This document shows positions 1-39,009 of a DNA stretch of 39,009 nucleotides, one piece after another. The DNA lies in the IMG/VR virus record IMGVR_UViG_2540341091_000002, positions 1 to 39,009 of that record. One strand, 5' to 3'. The DNA comes from a virus. Taxonomy: Duplodnaviria; Heunggongvirae; Uroviricota; Caudoviricetes. Both the position numbers and the translations under genes were made by a program. Each line of letters opens with the position of its first letter. The first letter of the stretch is position 1. The notes under the pieces were generated by a model that worked only from the letters and a program-made list of their open reading frames with translations, did not search any database and was not told the origin of the DNA.

Positions 1-90
1 TTGCCTCCCCCCCGTTGATGGGTAAAATAGCCGCAATTTTTCGTTTTCAACAAGCGCGGCGCGATGCCGCTTACTCAAGAAGAAAGAATT

Positions 91-165
91 ATGACGTTGT
101 CTCCTTATTTGCAAGAGGTGGCGAAGCGCCGCACTTTTGCCATTATTTCTCACCCCAATAATTAA
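91..165 (+). pseudogene. prfC: 5' fragment of peptide chain release factor 3 gene (prfC) truncated at the prophage junction (attL side)
   Basis: ORF at 91 encodes [22 protein letters not shown], which I recognise as the RF3 N-terminus; it diverges to NN-stop exactly where the GTP-binding P-loop (DAGKTT) should follow. Recognition is from memory, not a search. Confidence 0.6.
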
Positions 166-319
166 GCCTAAATTAAAGCTCTTTTACTCTTTCAAAATCC
201 TTTCAGTTAATTGAGGTTGAGTAATATAACTCATTTAAATACATTTAGTTATGTGGCTTCTTTAATTGAAAATTCTTTCATGTAACTTTAAATCGATCTG
301 CTTGCTTTCATCAAAAATC

Positions 320-378
320 TGTACATATGCTTGTACATAATGTACAAAGCAGCAGAGGTGTTTTGCGATTTGTACAAG
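320..378. repeat. Four copies of TGTACA(W)(R) immediately upstream of the integrase start; possible regulator or integrase binding sites
   Basis: tgtacata at 320 and 332, tgtacaaa at 341, tgtacaag at 371; similar GTAC-core palindromes occur in the cI-cro operator region. Confidence 0.45.
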
Positions 379-385
379 GTGAGTA

Positions 386-1609
386 ATGGCGCTGTCTGAT
401 GCGTGGTTGCGTTCAGTCGTTGGAAAGGAACGTGATAAGGTTTTGGTTAAATCCGATCGTGATGGTCTGTCTGTCAGAGTATCACCGAAAGGTCGCGTAG
501 TGTTCCAATATCGTTATCAATGGGCAGGGAAAGGTGAGCGTCTTGATATCGGAACTTACCCGGCAACTGGATTAAAAGAGGCCAGAGAAGAAGTTATCCG
601 TCTCCGTGGTGAACTCGAGTCAAACCGTAATCCACGATTGGTCAAGCAGGCTGAAAAACGAAAAGCTACTGAAGCCATGACGGTAGAGTCTGTGATCCGT
701 GCCTGGTATGAAGCATATTGTGTAAAAAATAAAAAAGGCTCTGAACAGATACTCCGCTCGTTTGAGCTGCACCTGTTCTCTAAAATCGGGAATATCCCTC
801 ACGATGCAGCTACATTGCATGATTGGTTAGAAGTCCTGGAGCCTCTTAGCACTAAGACTCCAGCAATAGCAGACCGATTGCTAATTAACGCAAAGCAGGC
901 CCATGTCTGGGCGTATAAGAGAAAGCTCATTGAAACTCGCCCGCTGTCGGATATCACGGGTAAAGATATGGATATCCGTAAAGGTCAGAAGAAACGGTTT
1001 CTGACACATGATGAAATTAAAATCCTTTATGCTGCGATCGATGGTTCTCGAATGGTTCCTAAATACCGGGCCTTCATTAAACTATTGCTGCATTTTGGCT
1101 GCCGTAGTTCAGAGCTAATTACCGCCAGGGTGGACGATTTTGATTTCATTAATAAAGTATGGACTGTACCACCAGAACGACATAAGACTGGGGAGATAAC
1201 GGGCGAACCGCTAAAACGGCCCATTATTGAACCGGTTGAAGAGCTTATAAAGTACGCTATTTCTATGAACAATGGTTCCGATATGCTTTTTACTAAGGAA
1301 GGAAGCAGGGAACCCGTTGGTCGGACATCATTGCAGTCGCTGCCTTACAATTTAATGCAGTATGCATGGCGGCGTTTGGGGTATCAATTCCCTCATTGGT
1401 CTCTGCATGATTTGAGGCGAACAGCACGAACAAACTTTTCTGATCTTACTGCGCCTCATATCGCAGAAATAATGCTCGGTCATAAACTGCCGGGGGTATG
1501 GCAAGTTTATGACAAGAGTGATTATTTAGAAGAACAGCGTAAAGCCTACCAGGCATGGTGGGAGAGAGTTGAATCGATTGTTACTTGTTCTGGTTCAGAC
1601 ACCAACTGA
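386..1609 (+). CDS. int: Tyrosine site-specific integrase (P4-type family)
   Basis: 407 aa; N-terminal arm-binding-like region (VSPKGRVVFQYRYQWAGKGERLDIGTYP) and C-terminal catalytic region with HDLRRTARTNF and LGHK...VYD motifs typical of phage integrases; sits next to the disrupted host gene. Confidence 0.9.
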   Translation: MALSDAWLRSVVGKERDKVLVKSDRDGLSVRVSPKGRVVFQYRYQWAGKGERLDIGTYPATGLKEAREEVIRLRGELESNRNPRLVKQAEKRKATEAMTVESVIRAWYEAYCVKNKKGSEQILRSFELHLFSKIGNIPHDAATLHDWLEVLEPLSTKTPAIADRLLINAKQAHVWAYKRKLIETRPLSDITGKDMDIRKGQKKRFLTHDEIKILYAAIDGSRMVPKYRAFIKLLLHFGCRSSELITARVDDFDFINKVWTVPPERHKTGEITGEPLKRPIIEPVEELIKYAISMNNGSDMLFTKEGSREPVGRTSLQSLPYNLMQYAWRRLGYQFPHWSLHDLRRTARTNFSDLTAPHIAEIMLGHKLPGVWQVYDKSDYLEEQRKAYQAWWERVESIVTCSGSDTN

Positions 1610-1781
1610 CAGTTTGCATATTTTGAACGCAATAAAATATGACAGTCCGCTTTGAGCGAGGAGCGGATATATGATGTTTAGAAAACGCGCGATTTGCAGT
1701 TAAGCAATCTAAGTTACTGATGTACTATACTGGAACTGCTGGCCAGTTTGTGTTGAACACCATCATTATCACAATAAGGAA

Positions 1782-3035
1782 ATGAAAGTCGAAATGAATA
1801 CTAAACTTTTGGCCTATTTAAACAATGAGTTACATGGAGTGTGGATAGATAGTGAAAATCGTAATATCCACATAATACTTAAATCAAGCCTTCCTATAAT
1901 TAAATCCGTCTGGTCAGGAGCACCTATCCACTTTTTGGTAGGTTTATCTACTAAAAATATACTAGTGATTGGGATGTTGATTGAAGATAATGTCGATAAT
2001 CCATTTTTACTAGCCTATCCACCAAGAGAGGCAGATGAAATTAAAGGGCTGGATTTGTTATTGTCAGGCGCTTATGATGGTATTCTATTATCATTTTTTG
2101 ACTCGCATACAATGCGTGTTATGGACCTGAAAATAAAAGTTTCGGAAAATTTACCGTGTGAATGTTTAAAAAAATTTTGTGCTAATTCATATTCTCTCAA
2201 TTCAGGATTTAGGGAAGGTAATGAAGCAATGGATGAATTCTGCAACAATGCTTTGACTGGTAACGAGAAAATAATTAGTCTGCCACTAAGTGTAATCGAT
2301 AAAAAATCTTACCTAGCAAGTGTTCATGAACCAAACGATACCGTATTAACATATGAATTTAGCGTCAGTGAAAACGGCTCTGAGGGATATGAGCAGGAAG
2401 CTCTTATATACCATGCTTTGCGGCAGGTCTTTTCACCGGAGGAAGTGTTTTTTTCTCCAGATATTATTGAGGGTAATAAAAAAAGAGAACTAGTTGATAT
2501 TCTTATTGTAGAAAATGACTATGTATTATCTATACAGTCTAAAGCATCATCTTTGATTGAAATGGGTTTAAAATCTCATGAAAAGCTTTGTAGCATGTAT
2601 AAGAAAAAAGCATTGCAAGGGATCGATCAGGTTAAAGGCGTTATCCCAATTCTAAATAATGATGTGGTTATTAATTATGACGGGAGGGAATGCTTAATAA
2701 AGCGCAGAAAGGGTATTTATCATTTAGTGATAATCTCAGATCTTGTTTTAGAGAAAGAAGGTGCTGAAAAGATTTATAACGAAATTAGCAACCTTAAAGA
2801 GTCAAAAGGGGCGAAAGTTTTAGTTATGAGCCTTGAAGGTCTTGTAAATTTTATAAGACTATCAAGATTAAATAAAAGAATGTTTTGGGCAATGCTGGAG
2901 ACTAAATACAAGTTCAGCATAAAAAACCGTACAATTTTAATTAGAGATATCGACTCTAGCCAAGAGAATAATCTACCATTACTTGCCACTGATCAATACC
3001 TATCACTTCTTCGAGGTACGGGAAAATTAAAATAA
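1782..3035 (+). CDS. Hypothetical AT-rich cargo protein; possible PD-(D/E)xK-like nuclease core (candidate defence or abortive-infection gene)
   Basis: 417-aa ORF with AAGGA ribosome-binding site upstream; composition is markedly AT-rich (roughly one-third G+C by eye, against about half in flanking phage genes); residues ~200-255 (EQEALIYHAL...ELVDILIVENDYVLSIQSK) fit an alpha-beta-beta-beta D...QxK pattern; no family recognised. Confidence 0.6.
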   Translation: MKVEMNTKLLAYLNNELHGVWIDSENRNIHIILKSSLPIIKSVWSGAPIHFLVGLSTKNILVIGMLIEDNVDNPFLLAYPPREADEIKGLDLLLSGAYDGILLSFFDSHTMRVMDLKIKVSENLPCECLKKFCANSYSLNSGFREGNEAMDEFCNNALTGNEKIISLPLSVIDKKSYLASVHEPNDTVLTYEFSVSENGSEGYEQEALIYHALRQVFSPEEVFFSPDIIEGNKKRELVDILIVENDYVLSIQSKASSLIEMGLKSHEKLCSMYKKKALQGIDQVKGVIPILNNDVVINYDGRECLIKRRKGIYHLVIISDLVLEKEGAEKIYNEISNLKESKGAKVLVMSLEGLVNFIRLSRLNKRMFWAMLETKYKFSIKNRTILIRDIDSSQENNLPLLATDQYLSLLRGTGKLK

Positions 3036-3220
3036 ATTGTATCAATGATACTGTTGCCACGTATCGAGACTGGCTTATGAACGGAAGGGTTTTCCAGCAG
3101 TTCAGCGACCGGAGCTGCACATCGATGCCGGATTGTGCCTGCAATTATGTACTTGGCTAAGAGGTGCTGCTGGCTCTGGATAGAATAACCCTAACGTCCA
3201 AAGAGCGCGCATTTTCATGT

Positions 3221-3261
3221 AAAAAAATAAATAGCTTGTCTGCTCTTGATACAGAGCAGAC
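3221..3261 (-). terminator. Rho-independent terminator ending the leftward early operon
   Basis: Perfect 9-bp inverted repeat gtctgctct/agagcagac with 6-nt loop (3238-3261); on the minus strand it is followed by a T-rich run (plus-strand aaaaaaataaata at 3221-3233). Confidence 0.5.
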
Positions 3262-3320
3262 AGTCAGATCTGTTTGGCTTGTGCCATAGATGTGCCAGCT
3301 CACATTTGAGCTAATGTTTG

Positions 3321-3515
3321 TTACTCAATTACTCCTGCAAACCTGTATATCTTACGTGATGCCCATTTATTTGGGCAGGATTTAATATCAGGATCTGGAA
3401 AATCAGGCCGATATTTCTGACCAGTCCTCCGGTTTACACTGTTCCAGCGAAGCACCGTCGATATTGAAACGCCACAGAATTCGGCGACTTGTTTTGTTGT
3501 CATTAAGTTGTTCAT
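3321..3515 (-). CDS. Excisionase-like helix-turn-helix DNA-binding protein (AlpA/TorI/Xis type), probable recombination directionality factor
   Basis: Start taken at internal Met (MNNLMTTKQVAEFCGVSISTVLRW...), which forms an ATGA overlap with the upstream gene stop; small HTH protein at the end of the operon near int. Confidence 0.6.
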   Translation of the reverse strand: MNNLMTTKQVAEFCGVSISTVLRWNSVNRRTGQKYRPDFPDPDIKSCPNKWASRKIYRFAGVIE

Positions 3516-3859
3516 TGTTGACCCTCCTGTGGTTGTGCAGTTGAAAGACTCATGCCCGCGCGTTGTTGCCAGACGACCCAGCCGAGAGCCATATCCCACG
3601 CCATGTACTCGTTATCACCGTTTTTTGCTCTCCGACGATCGACTGTTTTACCGAAACGCTTTTCCATAAATAATTCATAGGCTGCGCGTTCATCTGGCTC
3701 AACTTCCAGAGATGCCAGTGCAATCCGTGCCAGTTCTAAATCATCTTCAAGCTCAGCGCGAATCTCAGCGAATGCACTCTGTGTTAAGGCGAACTCAATG
3801 CTCTGCACTTTATTCCGTGCGCGCTCAAGCAGTGCATGGTAGTTAATTTCGGTTGTCAT
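3512..3859 (-). CDS. Hypothetical prophage early protein
   Basis: 115-aa ORF translationally coupled to neighbours on both sides; acidic helical sequence; no family recognised with confidence. Confidence 0.55.
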   Translation of the reverse strand: MTTEINYHALLERARNKVQSIEFALTQSAFAEIRAELEDDLELARIALASLEVEPDERAAYELFMEKRFGKTVDRRRAKNGDNEYMAWDMALGWVVWQQRAGMSLSTAQPQEGQQ

Positions 3860-4734
3860 ACCCCTACCTCTTCGAATTTCAATACCAATTGATCACCCCA
3901 GATTTCACATGACTCTGAACACGAGCCGGTATCGAATCGCCTGGCCTGTACCATCGCCTGATACAAATTTCTGTAGTCGCTGTTGGCAGACATTCTGGCA
4001 ATTCCGTCAAGCGTCAGGTGACCACGGTACATAACGTCTTTACCTGTTCTGCGATGACCATCCCTGACGTGTTTGCCTGTAACCAGCTCATTAAAAACTC
4101 GCATCAGACCAGGTTCGTCTTTACATGCAAGCCCCAGCTTTTGCGTTGACTTTTTGATGCAGAAAACACAGTTCCCGAGATGCTCCGGGATTTGCAAATC
4201 AAAAGGTTGTTTTCGCCACCACCGGATAACATCCGACTTATCAAAATCTGACAGTTCGGCAAGATACCGGACGCCCGATTTCGGTTTCAGCCTACGGGGT
4301 TCGTCTGCACGAATACCCAGCCATGTGATGTAATTACCTCGCCCGAAATGGTTATCGCAGTATTTCGTGAAAGGGATGAGTTTTAGCCTGTCAGTACAGA
4401 ACGCGCCGCCGATGTATGGCGTGCCGTACTTTTTAACCATGTCCATAAACGGTTTAAGTACCGGCATTCGCGTCTGAATATCCTTTGGCTCCCATTCTGT
4501 ATAACCATTTGGCTGCCCAAGCTCAGGATTGATATCGACCTGCAACACAGTTAGTGGTATGCCCCAGAACTTCACAACCTCCCGAATAAAGCGGTATGTC
4601 AGCGGATGTTCGCAACCGGTATCCATAAAGATGTAGCAGACGTTATTGCCAGCCTTTCTTTGTTCTTCCATCAGGTGAACAAGATATGCAGATGTTCTCC
4701 CGCCGGAAAAACTAACTACATGAGTTATGCACAT
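3856..4734 (-). CDS. Phosphoadenosine phosphosulfate (PAPS) reductase family protein, PP-loop ATP pyrophosphatase fold
   Basis: 292 aa; N-terminal VVSFSGGRTS PP-loop-like motif typical of the PAPS-reductase family; 10-bp overlap with upstream gene. Confidence 0.75.
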   Translation of the reverse strand: MCITHVVSFSGGRTSAYLVHLMEEQRKAGNNVCYIFMDTGCEHPLTYRFIREVVKFWGIPLTVLQVDINPELGQPNGYTEWEPKDIQTRMPVLKPFMDMVKKYGTPYIGGAFCTDRLKLIPFTKYCDNHFGRGNYITWLGIRADEPRRLKPKSGVRYLAELSDFDKSDVIRWWRKQPFDLQIPEHLGNCVFCIKKSTQKLGLACKDEPGLMRVFNELVTGKHVRDGHRRTGKDVMYRGHLTLDGIARMSANSDYRNLYQAMVQARRFDTGSCSESCEIWGDQLVLKFEEVGV

Positions 4735-5261
4735 TTGCGTAACTCCGATAACTCGTTAAAACGTTCCATAAACATCCCGTAGGCATGTCCTGGTGCCAGT
4801 GGAATCACTTTGAACATCTCTGTTGCCGGGATACCTTCCAGTACAGGCCAGAAAGAGCCATCATCAAGCCCGAGATCGCGGCGTTCGGTTGCCAGCATAA
4901 TGAGATCGGCATATTTCACTGGCGTGCTCATAACAGGAGGTAACCCGTATTTCTCACGGATTACGGCGTCTATTTTTTCTTCCATCTGTTTATAGTCAGG
5001 AAGAAGGCGTTTCAGTGGCGCGGGGATGTCCTGACAATACGCTTCTGTTGCATCATGCATTAACGCTTCAAAAGCAAACTCCTCCGGAACCAGTTTGCTG
5101 CAAAGCACCGCATGTTGGGCGACGCTGTAGAAGTGTGAAAGATGACCGGCAAAGCGACAGATATTTGAAAGGGAAACTGCGATATCGTTAATCACGATGT
5201 CGTCTTTATTTATCCTGTCATAATAAAAATGCTTCCCGGAAAAAGTTTTAATAAATGACAT
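4725..5261 (-). CDS. yfdR: HD-domain phosphohydrolase (YfdR-like, 5'-deoxynucleotidase family)
   Basis: Start placed at MSFIK (GGAG 6 nt upstream), giving 178 aa; HD motif in ALMHDATEAY; length and neighbours match the CPS-53 yfdP-yfdQ-yfdR arrangement as I recall it. Confidence 0.65.
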   Translation of the reverse strand: MSFIKTFSGKHFYYDRINKDDIVINDIAVSLSNICRFAGHLSHFYSVAQHAVLCSKLVPEEFAFEALMHDATEAYCQDIPAPLKRLLPDYKQMEEKIDAVIREKYGLPPVMSTPVKYADLIMLATERRDLGLDDGSFWPVLEGIPATEMFKVIPLAPGHAYGMFMERFNELSELRKCA

Positions 5262-5389
5262 TTTGTTCTCCACTTTATATGCGCTGCACCGCGCTGAATT
5301 TTGGTTAAAGAAAACCCTCGCCATCAGGCGATTATTGAGTTAATTACGTTTCCATAAATGCCCCCGCAGGGGCATTTGCAGTAATGAAA

Positions 5390-35618: not shown

Positions 35619-36269
35619 ATGCATCGTATAGACACGAAAACTGCGCAGAAGGATAAGTTCGGCGCGGGTAAGAACGGTTTTACCCGTGGTAACCCCCAGA
35701 CCGGCACGCCTGCCACCGATCTGGATGATGACTACTTTGACATGTTGCAGGAGGAGCTTTGCAGCGTTGTGGAGGCGTCCGGTGCCAGCCTGGAGAAGGG
35801 GCGGCACGACCAGCTGCTTACCGCGCTTCGTGCGCTGCTGTTAAGCCGCAAGAATCCGTTTGGTGATATCAAATCGGATGGCACGGTGAAAACGGCTCTC
35901 GAAAACCTTGGTTTGGGAGAAGCGGCGAAAAGGGATGTAGGCACAGGAGAAAATCAGATACCGGATATGTCAGCCTGGAAAAGAAATCCGAGTTCTAATC
36001 GCTGGAGAAAATTGCCTGATGGAACCATCATTCAAATGGGAATATCAGCATCAGGGCCATTAGGCTCACCTGTAAATATCACCCTGCCGATATCTTTCAG
36101 CAATACCAATTATTGTGTTGTTGCATCGTACGATAATGCACGGTCAGGTGTGTCAACAATGGTTAGTTTTGCAGCATTACCTGTTTCACCATCGCAATTT
36201 TCCCTGATGTCATCTGTGACTGAGCAAGGAATAAATCCTTTTGCTTACTGGATTGCTTTTGGAGATTGA
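35619..36269 (+). CDS. Tail fibre protein (constant N-terminus fused to the variable C-terminal cassette currently in the expressed orientation)
   Basis: 216 aa; the crossover site lies within the codons for ENLGLGE; followed by a tail-fibre assembly gene. Confidence 0.75.
35896..35921. repeat. Left recombination site of the invertible tail-fibre segment (gix/pix-like, 26 bp, dyad-symmetric)
   Basis: ctctcgaaaacc-tt-ggtttgggagaa; half-sites match in 9 of 12 positions; the reverse complement shares a 14-bp perfect core with the site at 37701. Confidence 0.6.
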
Positions 36270-36272
36270 TAA

Positions 36273-36692
36273 ATGGACAGATACTTCTATTCACAAAAAG
36301 AAAATGGTTTTTTTACCGATTTAAATAAAGCACCTTCAGATGCTGTTGAGATAACCACGGATGAATGGCTATCACTACTGGATGGTCAGGATAATGGCAT
36401 GAAAATAGTCAGCAATCAGGAGGGATATCCGGTTTTGACAGAGCAACCACCTTTATCAAAAGAAAACCTTATTGCATTGGCAGAGTTGAAAAAAGGAAAA
36501 CTTATTAATGAAGCCAACGAGCACATGAACAGCAGGCAATGGCCTGGTAAAGCGGCTATTGGTCGTCTGAAAGGTGAGGAACTGGCGCAATATAATTTGT
36601 GGCTGGATTATCTGGACGCACTGGAGCTGGTCGATACTTCCAGTGCGCCAGATATTGAATGGCCTACGCCTCCGGCAGTTCAGGCCAGATGA
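36273..36692 (+). CDS. Tail fibre assembly protein (Tfa), expressed orientation
   Basis: 139 aa; C-terminus DIEWPTPPAVQAR resembles Tfa C-termini; directly follows the tail fibre gene. Confidence 0.8.
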   Translation: MDRYFYSQKENGFFTDLNKAPSDAVEITTDEWLSLLDGQDNGMKIVSNQEGYPVLTEQPPLSKENLIALAELKKGKLINEANEHMNSRQWPGKAAIGRLKGEELAQYNLWLDYLDALELVDTSSAPDIEWPTPPAVQAR

Positions 36693-37257
36693 TATCCGGC
36701 GCGGTGCTGGTATCTGTTACCGTCACCGCGTCAATGTAATCCAGCACGGCGTTAAGTCGGGTTGTTTCTGCCTGCGTCAGTTTCCGTCCGGCCTGCAATT
36801 TCAGTTGAATCAGACTAATGGAAGCCATTGCAGTATCAATCAGTGACTGACGTTGTGCTTCTGCCGCGTCTACTGCGGCGCTATGCTGTGCCTCGGTATC
36901 CGTCACCCATTTCTCACCATCCCATTTATCGTATGGCGTTAACGGTGAAAGCGTGACATAACCGTCTTTGATGGCACCGATATAATCCACTGTAACAGCT
37001 GCGCCATTTTCTGTTGAGTAAACAGTCTCATTGCGATGGTCTTCTTCATGGCTCCATCCCTTACCCGTAAATACTGCCACTTTTCCCGGAATGTTTTCGC
37101 CAGGGTCAATACCAGTGGAACAGGCGGGCATACTTACGCCAGTATTAATATATTCATCAGACCAGCCCGTATACTCAGATGTTTCAGCATCATAATAAAA
37201 ACAACGCATATCGCCCGGCACTGTAGCCAGCCCATTTTCATCAAAAACAGGTTTCAT
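36664..37257 (-). CDS. Tail fibre assembly protein (alternative Tfa, inverted orientation)
   Basis: 197 aa; C-terminus DIIWPELPEA parallels the plus-strand Tfa; convergent 3' ends overlap, as in Mu U/U' and e14 tfaP/tfaE. Confidence 0.8.
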   Translation of the reverse strand: MKPVFDENGLATVPGDMRCFYYDAETSEYTGWSDEYINTGVSMPACSTGIDPGENIPGKVAVFTGKGWSHEEDHRNETVYSTENGAAVTVDYIGAIKDGYVTLSPLTPYDKWDGEKWVTDTEAQHSAAVDAAEAQRQSLIDTAMASISLIQLKLQAGRKLTQAETTRLNAVLDYIDAVTVTDTSTAPDIIWPELPEA

Positions 37258-37726
37258 TATTTAGCCCTCACCAGAAAGTTAAATGCAATATTTCGCGGTC
37301 TGACTGCAACAAAATTCACACCATCACCCACAGAGTTACTGGTGAAATTAAATCGTGAAAATCCTGGCTGATTTCCGGCGATGCCATCATGAAAGTTAAT
37401 TGCGTGTCCCGCACCTTCGCCTATATTCCCGGCAAACTGAGAAAAGTTTGTAGCGTTCTGCCAGCTTAATAATTCGCGACCACCGTCTACACCTCGCCCG
37501 TCATCCCAGACACGAATGAAATCACCGCGTGCGTCAGGTAATGCCAGCGCCGGAAACACTTTCGCCAGCACAGGGTAATCAGTGGCAGAAAATTTCGCCC
37601 CGTTGAACTTCAAAAACACCATACTGGACCAGCTGTCGATTACAGTATTTGGCATTGCAGCGGACGGCCAGAAGAACGGAACGCCAATAGCTGGAGAACC
37701 TTCTCCCAAACCAACGTTTATGAAAA
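37257..37726 (-). CDS. Silent alternative tail-fibre C-terminal cassette (no own start; expressed only after inversion). Boundaries approximate
   Basis: Open frame continues from the right crossover site (encoding GLGEG, matching LGLGE in the expressed gene); the track ORF's apparent start MSGNIGANP lies inside the IS2 end and is artefactual. Confidence 0.6.
37701..37726. repeat. Right recombination site of the invertible tail-fibre segment (inverted copy of the 35896 site)
   Basis: ttctcccaaaccaacgtttatgaaaa; first 14 bp identical to the reverse complement of the left site, 19 of 26 overall. Confidence 0.6.
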
Positions 37727-37780
37727 TGCAGAAATAACGAGCAAATGGCATCATTCCTGCTTTTGTCAGTGGATTTGCCC

Positions 37781-38686
37781 CTATATTTCCAGACATCTGT
37801 TATCACTTAACCCATTACAAGCCCGCTGCCGCAGATATTCCCGTGGCGAGCGATAACCCAGCGCACTATGCGGATGCCATTCGTTATAATGCTCGAACGC
37901 CTCTGCAAGGTTCTTTGCTGCCGTTAACCCGTCTGGTTTGGGCATGATACTGATGTAGTCACGCTTTATCGTTTTCACGAAGCTCTCTGCTATTCCGTTA
38001 CTCTCCGGACTCCGCACCGCCGTGTTCTTCGGTTCAAGTCCCAACATCCGGGCGAACTGGCGTGTTTCATTAGCCCGGTAGCATGAACCATTATCCGTCA
38101 GCCACTCCACTGGAGACGACGGAAGATCGTTGCCGAAGCGGCGTTCCACCGCTCCCAGCATGACGTCCTGTACTGTTTCACTGTTGAAGCCGCCGGTAGT
38201 GACCGCCCAGTGCAGTGCCTCACGATCACAGCAGTCCAGCGCGAACGTGACACGCAGTCTCTCTCCGTTATCACAGCAGAACTCGAACCCGTCAGAGCAC
38301 CATCGCTGATTGCTTTCTTTCACGGCCACTCTGCCTGTATGTGCCCGTTTCGATGGCGGTACAGCAGGTTTTCGCTCAAGCAACAGCGCATTCTGGCGCA
38401 TGATCCGGTAAACACGTTTGGCATTGATCGCAGGCATACCATCAAGTTCTGCCTGTCTGCGAAGCAGCGCCCATACCCGACGATAACCATACGTGGGCAG
38501 CTCTCCGATAACATGGTGTATACGGAGAAGCACATCCGTATCATCAGTGTGACGACTGCGGCGGCCATCCATCCAGTCATCGGTTCGTCTGAGAATGACG
38601 TGCAACTGCGCACGCGACACCCGGAGACAACGGCTGACTAAGCTTACTCCCCATCCCCGGGCAATAAGGGCGCGTGCGCTATCCAC
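37781..38686 (-). CDS. insD: IS2 transposase OrfB (InsD; DDE integrase-like catalytic domain)
   Basis: 301 aa beginning [16 protein letters not shown]; recognised as IS2 InsD. Confidence 0.9.
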
Positions 38687-39009
38687 TTTTTTGCCCGTCC
38701 ATATTCAACGGCTTCTTTGAGGAGTTCATTTTCCATCGTTTTCTTGCCGAGCAGGCGCTGGAGTTCTTTAATCTGCTTCATGGCGGCAGCAAGTTCAGAG
38801 GCAGGAACAACCTGTTCTCCGGCGGCGACAGCAGTAAGACTTCCTTCCTGGTATTGCTTACGCCAGAGAAATAACTGGCTGGCTGCTACACCATGTTGCC
38901 GGGCAACGAGGGAGACCGTCATCCCCGGTTCAAAGCTCTGCTGAACAATTGCGATCTTTTCCTGTGTGGTACGCCGTCTGCGTTTCTCCGGCCCTAAGAC
39001 ATCAATCAT
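38644..39009 (-). CDS. insC: IS2 OrfA (InsC; HTH DNA-binding component of the transposase)
   Basis: 121 aa beginning [33 protein letters not shown]; start codon at the last three bases of the window. Confidence 0.9.

What the first reader, a model, noticed from the sequence alone, without database searches (positions are those of the whole stretch)
1782..3035. AT-rich 417-aa cargo gene between integrase and excisionase: candidate undescribed defence or abortive-infection protein
The gene sits in the classic integrase-adjacent accessory slot and its base composition is far more AT-rich than the rest of the phage, which argues for separate acquisition. I recognise no known family. Residues ~200-255 have the layout of a PD-(D/E)xK nuclease core: an Glu-containing helix (EQEALIYHAL), then strands EVFFSP, ELVDILIV (Asp) and YVLSIQSK (QxK), flanked by a ~200-aa N-terminal and ~160-aa C-terminal region of unknown function. 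A single-gene architecture with a variable sensor plus nuclease would fit systems such as Shedu or Abi proteins, but that link is speculative.
Basis: partly seen in the sequence, partly recalled or inferred. Interest (0 to 1): 0.72.

Follow-up and report, generated by a model that had tools for sequence, protein, structure and literature searches.

The report
Prophage cargo nuclease, probable anti-phage defence
An AT-rich gene slotted next to the integrase of an E. coli prophage encodes a two-domain protein, an unknown acidic N-terminal domain fused to a FokI/NERD-like DNA-cutting domain, and it sits in the places where mobile elements keep anti-phage genes, so it is most likely an untested single-gene defence nuclease.

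Summary
There is an intact 417-codon ORF at 1782-3035 (+); the real start is probably ATG 1794, giving 413 aa. Its GC is 0.34 against 0.51 for the window, the lowest of any same-sized stretch. It lies in a sharply bounded swappable cassette (~1652-3237) between the integrase and the terminator of the leftward early operon.

The N-terminal ~195 aa form a separate, acidic domain with its own near-invariant residues and no detectable relatives.

Family members (225 representatives) are lone genes in the documented P2 and P4 defence hotspots, beside PD-T7-1, and in phage-plasmids and plasmid islands. Sister phages carry a dGTPase defence gene in the same slot.

Best reading: a stand-alone, sensor-gated defence nuclease. 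This is a new variant of a known kind, experimentally untested. It is not Shedu.

The parts
1652..3237 (.). Swappable cargo cassette: the stretch with no homology to sister phages that share the integrase and the early-left operon
   Evidence: blastn against five related phages. Left homology ends at 1588-1651 and right homology resumes at 3238-3251. Other phages hold 239-, 377-, 408- (dGTPase) and 438/517-aa unrelated genes here.
1794..3035 (+). Coding sequence, 413 aa from the likely start; an alternative in-frame ATG at 1782 gives the 417 aa used for residue numbering in this report
   Evidence: ORF list; RefSeq start; homolog N-termini; SD spacing.
1782..2375 (+). N-terminal domain (residues 1-198): alpha/beta, acidic (pI ~5.0), family-specific, no recognisable relatives. 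Near-invariant W21, K34, K41, D69, P74, D151; position 108 is E in 82% of the family and S here. Residues 121-165 are the most variable part. Proposed sensor or regulatory module.
   Evidence: Model at pLDDT ~90; conservation; pI and per-segment conservation; no similarity to the C-domain; no Pfam or PDB sequence hit.
2376..2939 (+). PD-(D/E)xK nuclease domain (residues 199-386) of FokI / BspD6I / NERD type
2397..2543 (+). Catalytic core codons: E206 (2397-2399), D239 (2496-2498), Q252 (2535-2537), K254 (2541-2543); E236 (2487-2489) is also 99% conserved
   Evidence: E206, D239 and K254 are invariant in 131 sequences. Position 252 is E 101 / Q 28 / S 2.
2628..2639 (+). Q283 (invariant) and G286 (99%) on the long helix after the core
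2940..3032 (+). C-terminal tail (residues 387-417) with DxDSSxExNLP, invariant in the Enterobacterales clade but absent from the wider family; low model confidence (pLDDT ~60). Role unknown.
386..1609 (+). Tyrosine integrase, left flank of the slot
   Evidence: Pfam; RefSeq annotation.
3237..3262 (-). Terminator-like hairpin plus T-run ending the leftward early operon. It marks the right edge of the cassette and shields the cargo gene from antisense read-through.
   Evidence: Consensus scan; coincides with the homology breakpoint. Function is inferred.
3321..3524 (-). Small HTH protein, possible excisionase
   Evidence: Sub-threshold HTH_17/MerR/HTH_23 hits.

Best explanation
The gene is a lysogen-carried, single-gene anti-phage defence candidate. 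It is a two-domain enzyme: a family-specific acidic N-terminal domain (~195 aa) controls a C-terminal FokI/BspD6I/NERD-type PD-(D/E)xK endonuclease domain, whose active site is E206, D239, Q252 and K254 with help from E236 and Q283. Proposed mechanism, by analogy only: in the resting lysogen the nuclease is inactive. During superinfection the N-domain recognises a phage-derived cue, more likely a protein or small ligand than DNA. This allows the single-active-site cleavage domains to pair or oligomerise, as FokI must, and to cut nucleic acid. That either destroys the invader or aborts the infection. What is shown: the ORF, its foreign composition, cassette-like exchange, the nuclease fold, an intact conserved catalytic site, the lone-gene architecture, and residence in documented defence hotspots. 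What is inferred: the defence function, the trigger, the substrate (DNA or RNA), and activation by oligomerisation.
Against: There is no experimental evidence. No paper mentions any of its accessions, and it is absent from the DefensePredictor tables. There is no hit to any of 5027 PADLOC models, for the query or consistently for its relatives. No promoter was found upstream by the consensus scan, so expression in the lysogen is unproven. The catalytic Glu of the wider family is Gln in this clade, which might lower or alter activity. No sequenced phage isolate carries the gene (0 of 50,697), and 75 of 5426 complete E. coli genomes do. Guilt by location is probabilistic: the DefensePredictor authors report 45% validation even for high-scoring candidates, and only 1 of 24 for remote homologs with low scores.
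Confidence: 0.6

Rival explanations
1. It is a solitary restriction endonuclease of Type IV (modification-dependent) or Type IIS-like design. The N-domain binds DNA directly, either modified bases or a sequence, and the FokI-like domain cuts nearby, with no sensing of phage proteins.
For: The closest structures are the cleavage modules of Type IIS enzymes (FokI, BspD6I), which pair a separate recognition domain with a non-specific cleavage domain. No methyltransferase lies next to the gene in any context, as expected for Type IV enzymes. Prophages often carry such enzymes (general knowledge).
Confidence: 0.17
2. It is an RNA-targeting NERD-type nuclease that cleaves phage or host transcripts (like ZwsA) rather than DNA.
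Against: The best structural matches by a clear margin are DNA endonucleases. ZwsA has a different architecture (VHS, DUF647, S4 RNA-binding domain) and no such RNA-binding module is present here.
Confidence: 0.08
3. It is a selfish or addiction-type toxin, or another phage-serving nuclease (homing, recombination, host-DNA degradation during lytic growth), with no role in defence.
Against: No conserved antitoxin, immunity or secretion partner is found in nine contexts. The gene is insulated from the phage's early operon by a terminator and lies outside replication and recombination modules. It is freely replaced by unrelated genes in otherwise near-identical phages, so it is dispensable for the phage life cycle. 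It occupies slots that different element types reserve for defence cargo.
Confidence: 0.1
4. It is a decaying or inactive remnant: the E252Q change has killed the nuclease and the gene is drifting.
For: Gln replaces the family's usual catalytic Glu. One Klebsiella plasmid copy is cut by IS5, and shorter or partial entries occur in the protein cluster.
Against: Q252 is fixed across a clade spanning 54-99% identity, with every other catalytic residue intact and full-length ORFs in E. coli, Serratia, Morganella, Yersinia and Salmonella. Q occurs in 28 of 131 family members and is a recognised NERD variant. The 75 complete-genome E. coli copies are at least 99% identical and intact.
Confidence: 0.05

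Closest known systems
FokI cleavage domain and the catalytic domains of N.BspD6I / R.BspD6I small subunit (Type IIS restriction, PD-(D/E)xK)
   Different: There is no sequence-level match to FokI_cleav or any PDB chain. The N-terminal partner domain is unrelated and acidic rather than a DNA-recognition module. No methyltransferase is present. Whether it must dimerise like FokI is unknown.
NERD (nuclease-related domain, Pfam PF08378) proteins used in defence: HEC-02B, Nhi-like, Mokosh type I, viperin-associated NERD, ZwsA
   Same: 24 of 121 relatives hit NERD (best E 8.8e-6), over essentially the whole NERD profile (residues 212-314 in P0018). They share the (D/E/Q)xK signature and the E/D/ExK spacing of ZwsA.
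   Different: The query itself gives no NERD hit even at E<=10. The known NERD defence proteins work with an ABC ATPase or a helicase, or carry VHS/S4 domains. This one is a lone gene with a different, undescribed N-domain, and the PADLOC NERD models do not match it.
DefensePredictor single-gene PD-(D/E)xK systems DS-26 (WP_054626965.1, FokI_cleav/NERD-like, 532 aa) and DS-37 (WP_000982358.1, NERD-like, 463 aa) of E. coli
   Same: Same concept: one E. coli accessory gene with a FokI/NERD-like nuclease plus an unrelated extra domain, experimentally validated as anti-phage.
   Different: hhalign of the family profile against both gives probability below 1%, although the supplement sequences are truncated at 399 aa. 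Lengths and N-terminal regions differ. They are not the same family.
Shedu (SduA, DUF4263)
   Different: No PADLOC Shedu or Pfam DUF4263 hit. The structural score is far below that of the FokI/BspD6I-type domains. It is not a member.

Membership tests
PD-(D/E)xK nuclease superfamily | Alpha-beta-beta-beta-alpha-beta core fold | tested here: met
PD-(D/E)xK nuclease superfamily | Conserved acidic residue(s) plus (D/E/Q)xK on adjacent strands, and a Glu on the first helix | tested here: met
   E206, D239 and K254 are invariant in 131/131. Position 252 is E 101 / Q 28 / S 2.
PD-(D/E)xK nuclease superfamily | Metal-dependent phosphodiester cleavage | not testable with these tools
   Needs purified protein.
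Pfam NERD (PF08378) | Score at or above the curated gathering cut-off (22.1 bits) | tested here: not met
   The query has no hit at E<=10. P0018 scores 17.0 bits, below the cut-off. 24 of 121 relatives hit at E<=0.01. The best, at E 8.8e-6, would be about 27 bits by extrapolation, which is an inference and not a printed score. The family is therefore a distant NERD-like branch and the query is not a formal member.
FokI-type cleavage domain (Pfam FokI_cleav, PF09254) | Sequence match to the family model | tested here: not met
   No Pfam hit for the query or for 121 relatives. No PDB sequence hit with the family profile. Only structural similarity is seen.
Shedu (SduA / DUF4263) | Match to the Shedu / DUF4263 models | tested here: not met
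Any known or candidate defence system in PADLOC-DB 2.0.0 | Match to one of 5027 models | tested here: not met
   Zero hits for the query. Only scattered single weak hits among 121 relatives.
DefensePredictor DS-26 / DS-37 | Detectable homology to the validated proteins | tested here: not met
   hhalign probability 0.5% for both. Caveat: the sequences available were cut at 399 aa.
Defence-hotspot cargo of mobile elements (operational class) | Located in documented defence hotspots and interchangeable with known defence genes | tested here: met
   P2 GpA-GpQ slot and P4 int-to-delta slot, both as defined in PMC13586616. A dGTPase occupies the same lambdoid slot. PD-T7-1 is an immediate neighbour.
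Type II/IIS restriction-modification | Cognate methyltransferase nearby | tested here: not met
   None is adjacent in the window or in the chromosomal, prophage and satellite contexts. A phage N6-adenine methyltransferase lies ~1.2 kb away on the Salmonella phage-plasmid, but it belongs to the phage backbone.
Toxin-antitoxin / two-gene Abi | Conserved adjacent partner gene | tested here: not met
   The neighbours differ in every context, and there is no conserved flanking DNA or small ORF.
Anti-phage defence system (functional definition) | Reduces phage plating or causes abortive infection when expressed | not testable with these tools
   No publication mentions the protein.

The most novel reading that the evidence does not exclude
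The ~195-aa acidic N-terminal domain is a previously unrecognised sensor fold. It detects a phage protein or infection-specific metabolite and licenses dimerisation of a FokI-like non-specific cleavage domain. That would define a new, widespread (225+ clusters) family of single-chain 'sensor-FokI' immune nucleases carried by lambdoid, P2 and P4 elements and by phage-plasmids. Its near-invariant K34/K41/D69/E108/D151 would form the ligand site.
Probability: 0.25. Interest if true: 0.65.

Novelty: new variant of a known kind. Interest (0 to 1): 0.5.

Why it matters
If validated, this would add a named single-gene defence family found in about 1.4% of complete E. coli genomes, including APEC and ExPEC strains, and across Enterobacterales mobile elements. 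It would also mark the int-proximal slot of this prophage group as a defence hotspot, alongside the P2 and P4 ones, and supply a new sensor domain coupled to a FokI-type cleavage module. The last point is of some engineering interest, because FokI-type domains are the cutting part of ZFNs and TALENs. It also bears on phage therapy and host-range prediction for the strains that carry the gene. It would not change how defence is understood: single proteins that pair a sensor with a PD-(D/E)xK nuclease are already a common, well-populated category.

Tried and rejected
(1) Direct family assignment failed. The query gave nothing in Pfam, NCBIfam or PADLOC. PHROGs gave only its own family of unknown function, phrog_30399. 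phmmer against the PDB gave a spurious malic-enzyme fragment.

It was replaced by a model from a 131-sequence alignment.

(3) Identifying the N-domain led nowhere. The profile search against the PDB found nothing. BFVD gave only generic nuclease hits at poor TM-scores. AFDB50 was unavailable. An internal duplication of the nuclease domain was rejected (hhalign probability 1%).

(4) P0050, a 2283-aa protein with 23 matches to residues 42-116, turned out to be a T9SS-secreted repeat protein (CHU_C, DUF5489). The match is most likely a repeat or composition artefact.

(5) I thought by eye that DS-26 shared the 'VD...xSKA...KG..Q' motifs. hhalign did not support this, so the idea was dropped.

(7) The promoter scan found no sigma-70-like site upstream of the gene on the + strand, so expression remains open.

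Full report
OBSERVATION. The window contains an intact ORF at 1782-3035 on the + strand (417 codons), exactly as reported. With the gene's own base composition the per-codon stop probability is 0.081, so 417 stop-free codons have a chance of about 4e-16. The gene has GC 0.338 (GC3 0.285) against 0.509 for the window. It is the lowest-GC 1254-nt stretch in the whole 39 kb, z = -3.4. Upstream lies a tyrosine integrase at 386-1609 (Pfam Phage_integrase, Arm-DNA-bind_3, Phage_int_M). Downstream, on the opposite strand, lies the phage's leftward early operon: a small HTH ORF, a PAPS-reductase-like gene, then yfdR, yfdQ and yfdP. The 'excisionase' is a 67-aa HTH ORF with only sub-threshold HTH_17/MerR hits, so it is plausible but not established. 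The real start is probably ATG 1794 (413 aa). All distant homologs start at the equivalent Met, RefSeq calls it there, and the AAGGA Shine-Dalgarno directly abuts ATG 1782. Residue numbers below use the 417-aa frame.

A SWAPPABLE CASSETTE. blastn against five sequenced relatives with the same integrase shows that homology stops at 1588-1651 and resumes at 3238-3251. The right breakpoint coincides with a terminator-like hairpin (3237-3262, minus strand) that ends the leftward operon. Between these points the relatives carry different AT-rich genes (GC 0.31-0.37). PhiR63_1 has a 377-aa gene and phage 2H10 a 239-aa gene. Stx1a and Stx2c phages have a 438/517-aa gene with a hydrophobic N-terminus. 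Stx2c_EH0430 has a 408-aa dGTPase that matches the PADLOC dGTPase defence model at 6e-105. So ~1652-3237 is an exchangeable single-gene cargo slot, and a known defence gene occupies it in a sister phage. In E. coli the gene occurs in 75 of 5426 complete genomes at 99% identity or more, once per genome. In the four copies examined it sits with the same integrase at the same site downstream of yjjG, while the immunity regions differ. The exact protein is seen on 635 contigs of E. coli and Shigella and is always called 'hypothetical'. No sequenced phage isolate encodes it (0 of 50,697).

WHAT THE PROTEIN IS. The query hits nothing in Pfam, NCBIfam or PADLOC. PHROGs gives only its own family of unknown function, phrog_30399. 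The word-indexed search found 13 close clusters (54-99% identity) in E. coli, Serratia, Morganella and Yersinia. The exhaustive profile search found 225 representatives at E<=1e-3, 81 of them at E<=1e-10, nearly all ~400 aa and aligned end to end. Mean identity across 131 full-length members is about 21%. Even so, E206, D239, K254 and Q283 are invariant, and G202, P226, E236 and G286 are at least 99% conserved. Position 252 is Glu in 101, Gln in 28 and Ser in 2. The wider family therefore has a canonical E...D...ExK nuclease signature and this clade carries the QxK variant, which the literature describes as within the NERD signature (D/E/Q)xK.

CONTEXT ACROSS THE FAMILY. Nine independent neighbourhoods were read.
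- The E. coli int-proximal slot.
- A P2-like prophage, between tail genes gpS and gpV, next to a DUF6602/PD-DExK gene.
- A Morganella lambdoid prophage end, directly beside a PD-T7-1 homolog at 1.6e-156.
- A Yersinia plasmid island with Mrr_cat, PLD and HEPN genes.
- A P4-like satellite, between delta and the integrase.
- A P2/186-like prophage, between GpA and the portal gene.
- An integrase-bearing island.
- A Salmonella IncFIB plasmid with phage-type genes (thymidylate synthase, DHFR, phage N6-adenine methyltransferase, Rha regulator), probably a phage-plasmid, where the gene lies next to an IS110 transposase.
- A Klebsiella plasmid copy cut by IS5.

A 2026 survey states that most P4 defence systems lie between the integrase and psu-delta-sid, and many P2 systems between GpA and GpQ (PMC13586616). 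Two family members sit in exactly those places. No neighbour is shared between contexts, and no flanking DNA is conserved. The gene is 10-19 GC points below its flanks in every Enterobacterales host. This is the behaviour of a self-contained, horizontally shuttled defence cargo gene.

MECHANISM. What is shown is a conserved, apparently catalytically competent FokI/NERD-like nuclease domain fused to a conserved acidic domain, encoded as a lone gene in defence slots. What I infer is that the N-domain keeps the nuclease off until it meets an infection cue. Because each FokI-type domain has only one active site, activation would then involve pairing or oligomerisation, followed by cleavage of phage DNA, or of all DNA in an abortive-infection mode. 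I put 0.6 on 'stand-alone sensor-gated defence nuclease'. The rivals are a solitary Type IV or IIS-like restriction enzyme whose N-domain reads DNA (0.17), an RNA-cutting NERD enzyme like ZwsA (0.08), a selfish toxin or phage-intrinsic nuclease (0.10), and an inactive remnant (0.05). The first two rivals are also defence functions, so 'defence of some kind' totals about 0.85 on my estimate.

COMPARISON WITH KNOWN SYSTEMS. It works like the growing class of single-protein PD-(D/E)xK defence nucleases. DefensePredictor alone validated 13 systems with such domains in E. coli. These include DS-26 (FokI_cleav/NERD-like) and DS-37 (NERD-like). It is not a detectable homolog of either one (hhalign probability below 1%, on truncated sequences). 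It is not Shedu. It is not any PADLOC 2.0.0 system or candidate. Known NERD defence proteins act with ABC ATPases or helicases, or carry other domains. No paper in the searchable library mentions any of its accessions, and it is absent from the DefensePredictor tables. The Brenes and Laub 2025 prophage screen could not be read here, so prior testing there cannot be excluded.

VERDICT. The novelty class is a new variant of a known kind: a familiar effector fold combined with an undescribed N-domain, in a sizeable unannotated family. Interest is moderate at 0.5. It is a good, well-defined candidate for experimental validation, but specialists now expect many such genes, and nothing here contradicts current understanding.

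Noticed in passing
window 35903-35922 and 37700-37719 (with ORFs 35619-36692 + and 36664-38686 -): A 20-nt inverted repeat, 95% complementary and 1777 nt apart, with an AAACC..GGTTT core. It brackets convergent tail-fibre-region ORFs at the right end of the prophage. This looks like a Gin/Cin/Pin-type invertible host-range segment. The partial ORF at 38644-39009 (-) could be the invertase.
   Followed up: partly
L002 2046-3599 (-) and L010 2222-3538 (-): Stx2c and Stx1a converting phages, same slot as the finding: An unrelated AT-rich (GC 0.33) 517/438-aa gene with a hydrophobic, probably membrane-spanning N-terminus occupies the int-proximal slot of many Stx phages. It has no Pfam or PADLOC hit and is another uncharacterised defence-slot candidate.
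   Followed up: partly
L007 1627-2760 (+) (phage PhiR63_1 from ECOR13) and L008 2282-3001 (+) (phage 2H10): Two more unrelated AT-rich cargo genes (377 aa at GC 0.32; 239 aa at GC 0.31) in the same slot. Neither has a Pfam or PADLOC hit.
   Followed up: partly
L003 9351-10667 (+): The P2-type prophage copy of the family sits next to a 438-aa DUF6602 protein that also hits the PADLOC 'PD_DExK' CRISPR-associated model (7.9e-8). The DefensePredictor plating tables list a construct named '6602' (WP_021529611.1, 253 aa, PD-(D/E)xK) with 3.8-4.7 log reductions against phages Candy and RB69. DUF6602-type proteins may therefore be defence genes too.
   Followed up: partly
window 3856-4734 (-) and 4725-5324 (-): The leftward early operon encodes a PAPS-reductase-family protein (the Pfam match covers only the N-terminal 70 residues), overlapping the yfdR 5'-deoxynucleotidase gene. 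These nucleotide-metabolism genes are conserved in this prophage group; their role, possibly DNA modification or counter-defence, was not examined.
   Followed up: no
P0050 (2283 aa): A giant T9SS-secreted repeat protein (CHU_C signal, DUF5489) gave 23 separate matches to residues 42-116 of the family profile at E 2.9e-17. This is probably a repeat or composition artefact, but a real shared beta-rich module was not ruled out.
   Followed up: partly
window residues 387-417 of the protein (nt 2940-3032): The C-terminal tail motif D-x-D-S-S-x-E-x-N-L-P is invariant across the 54-99% identity Enterobacterales clade but missing from the wider family, and it is modelled at low confidence. It may be a clade-specific regulatory or interaction peptide.
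   Followed up: no
window 1-385: The window starts in host DNA. In RefSeq, a truncated 'hypothetical protein, partial' remnant lies just before the integrase, downstream of yjjG. Stx phages with the same integrase annotate a 14-bp insertion duplication that maps to about window 142-155, the likely att core.
   Followed up: partly
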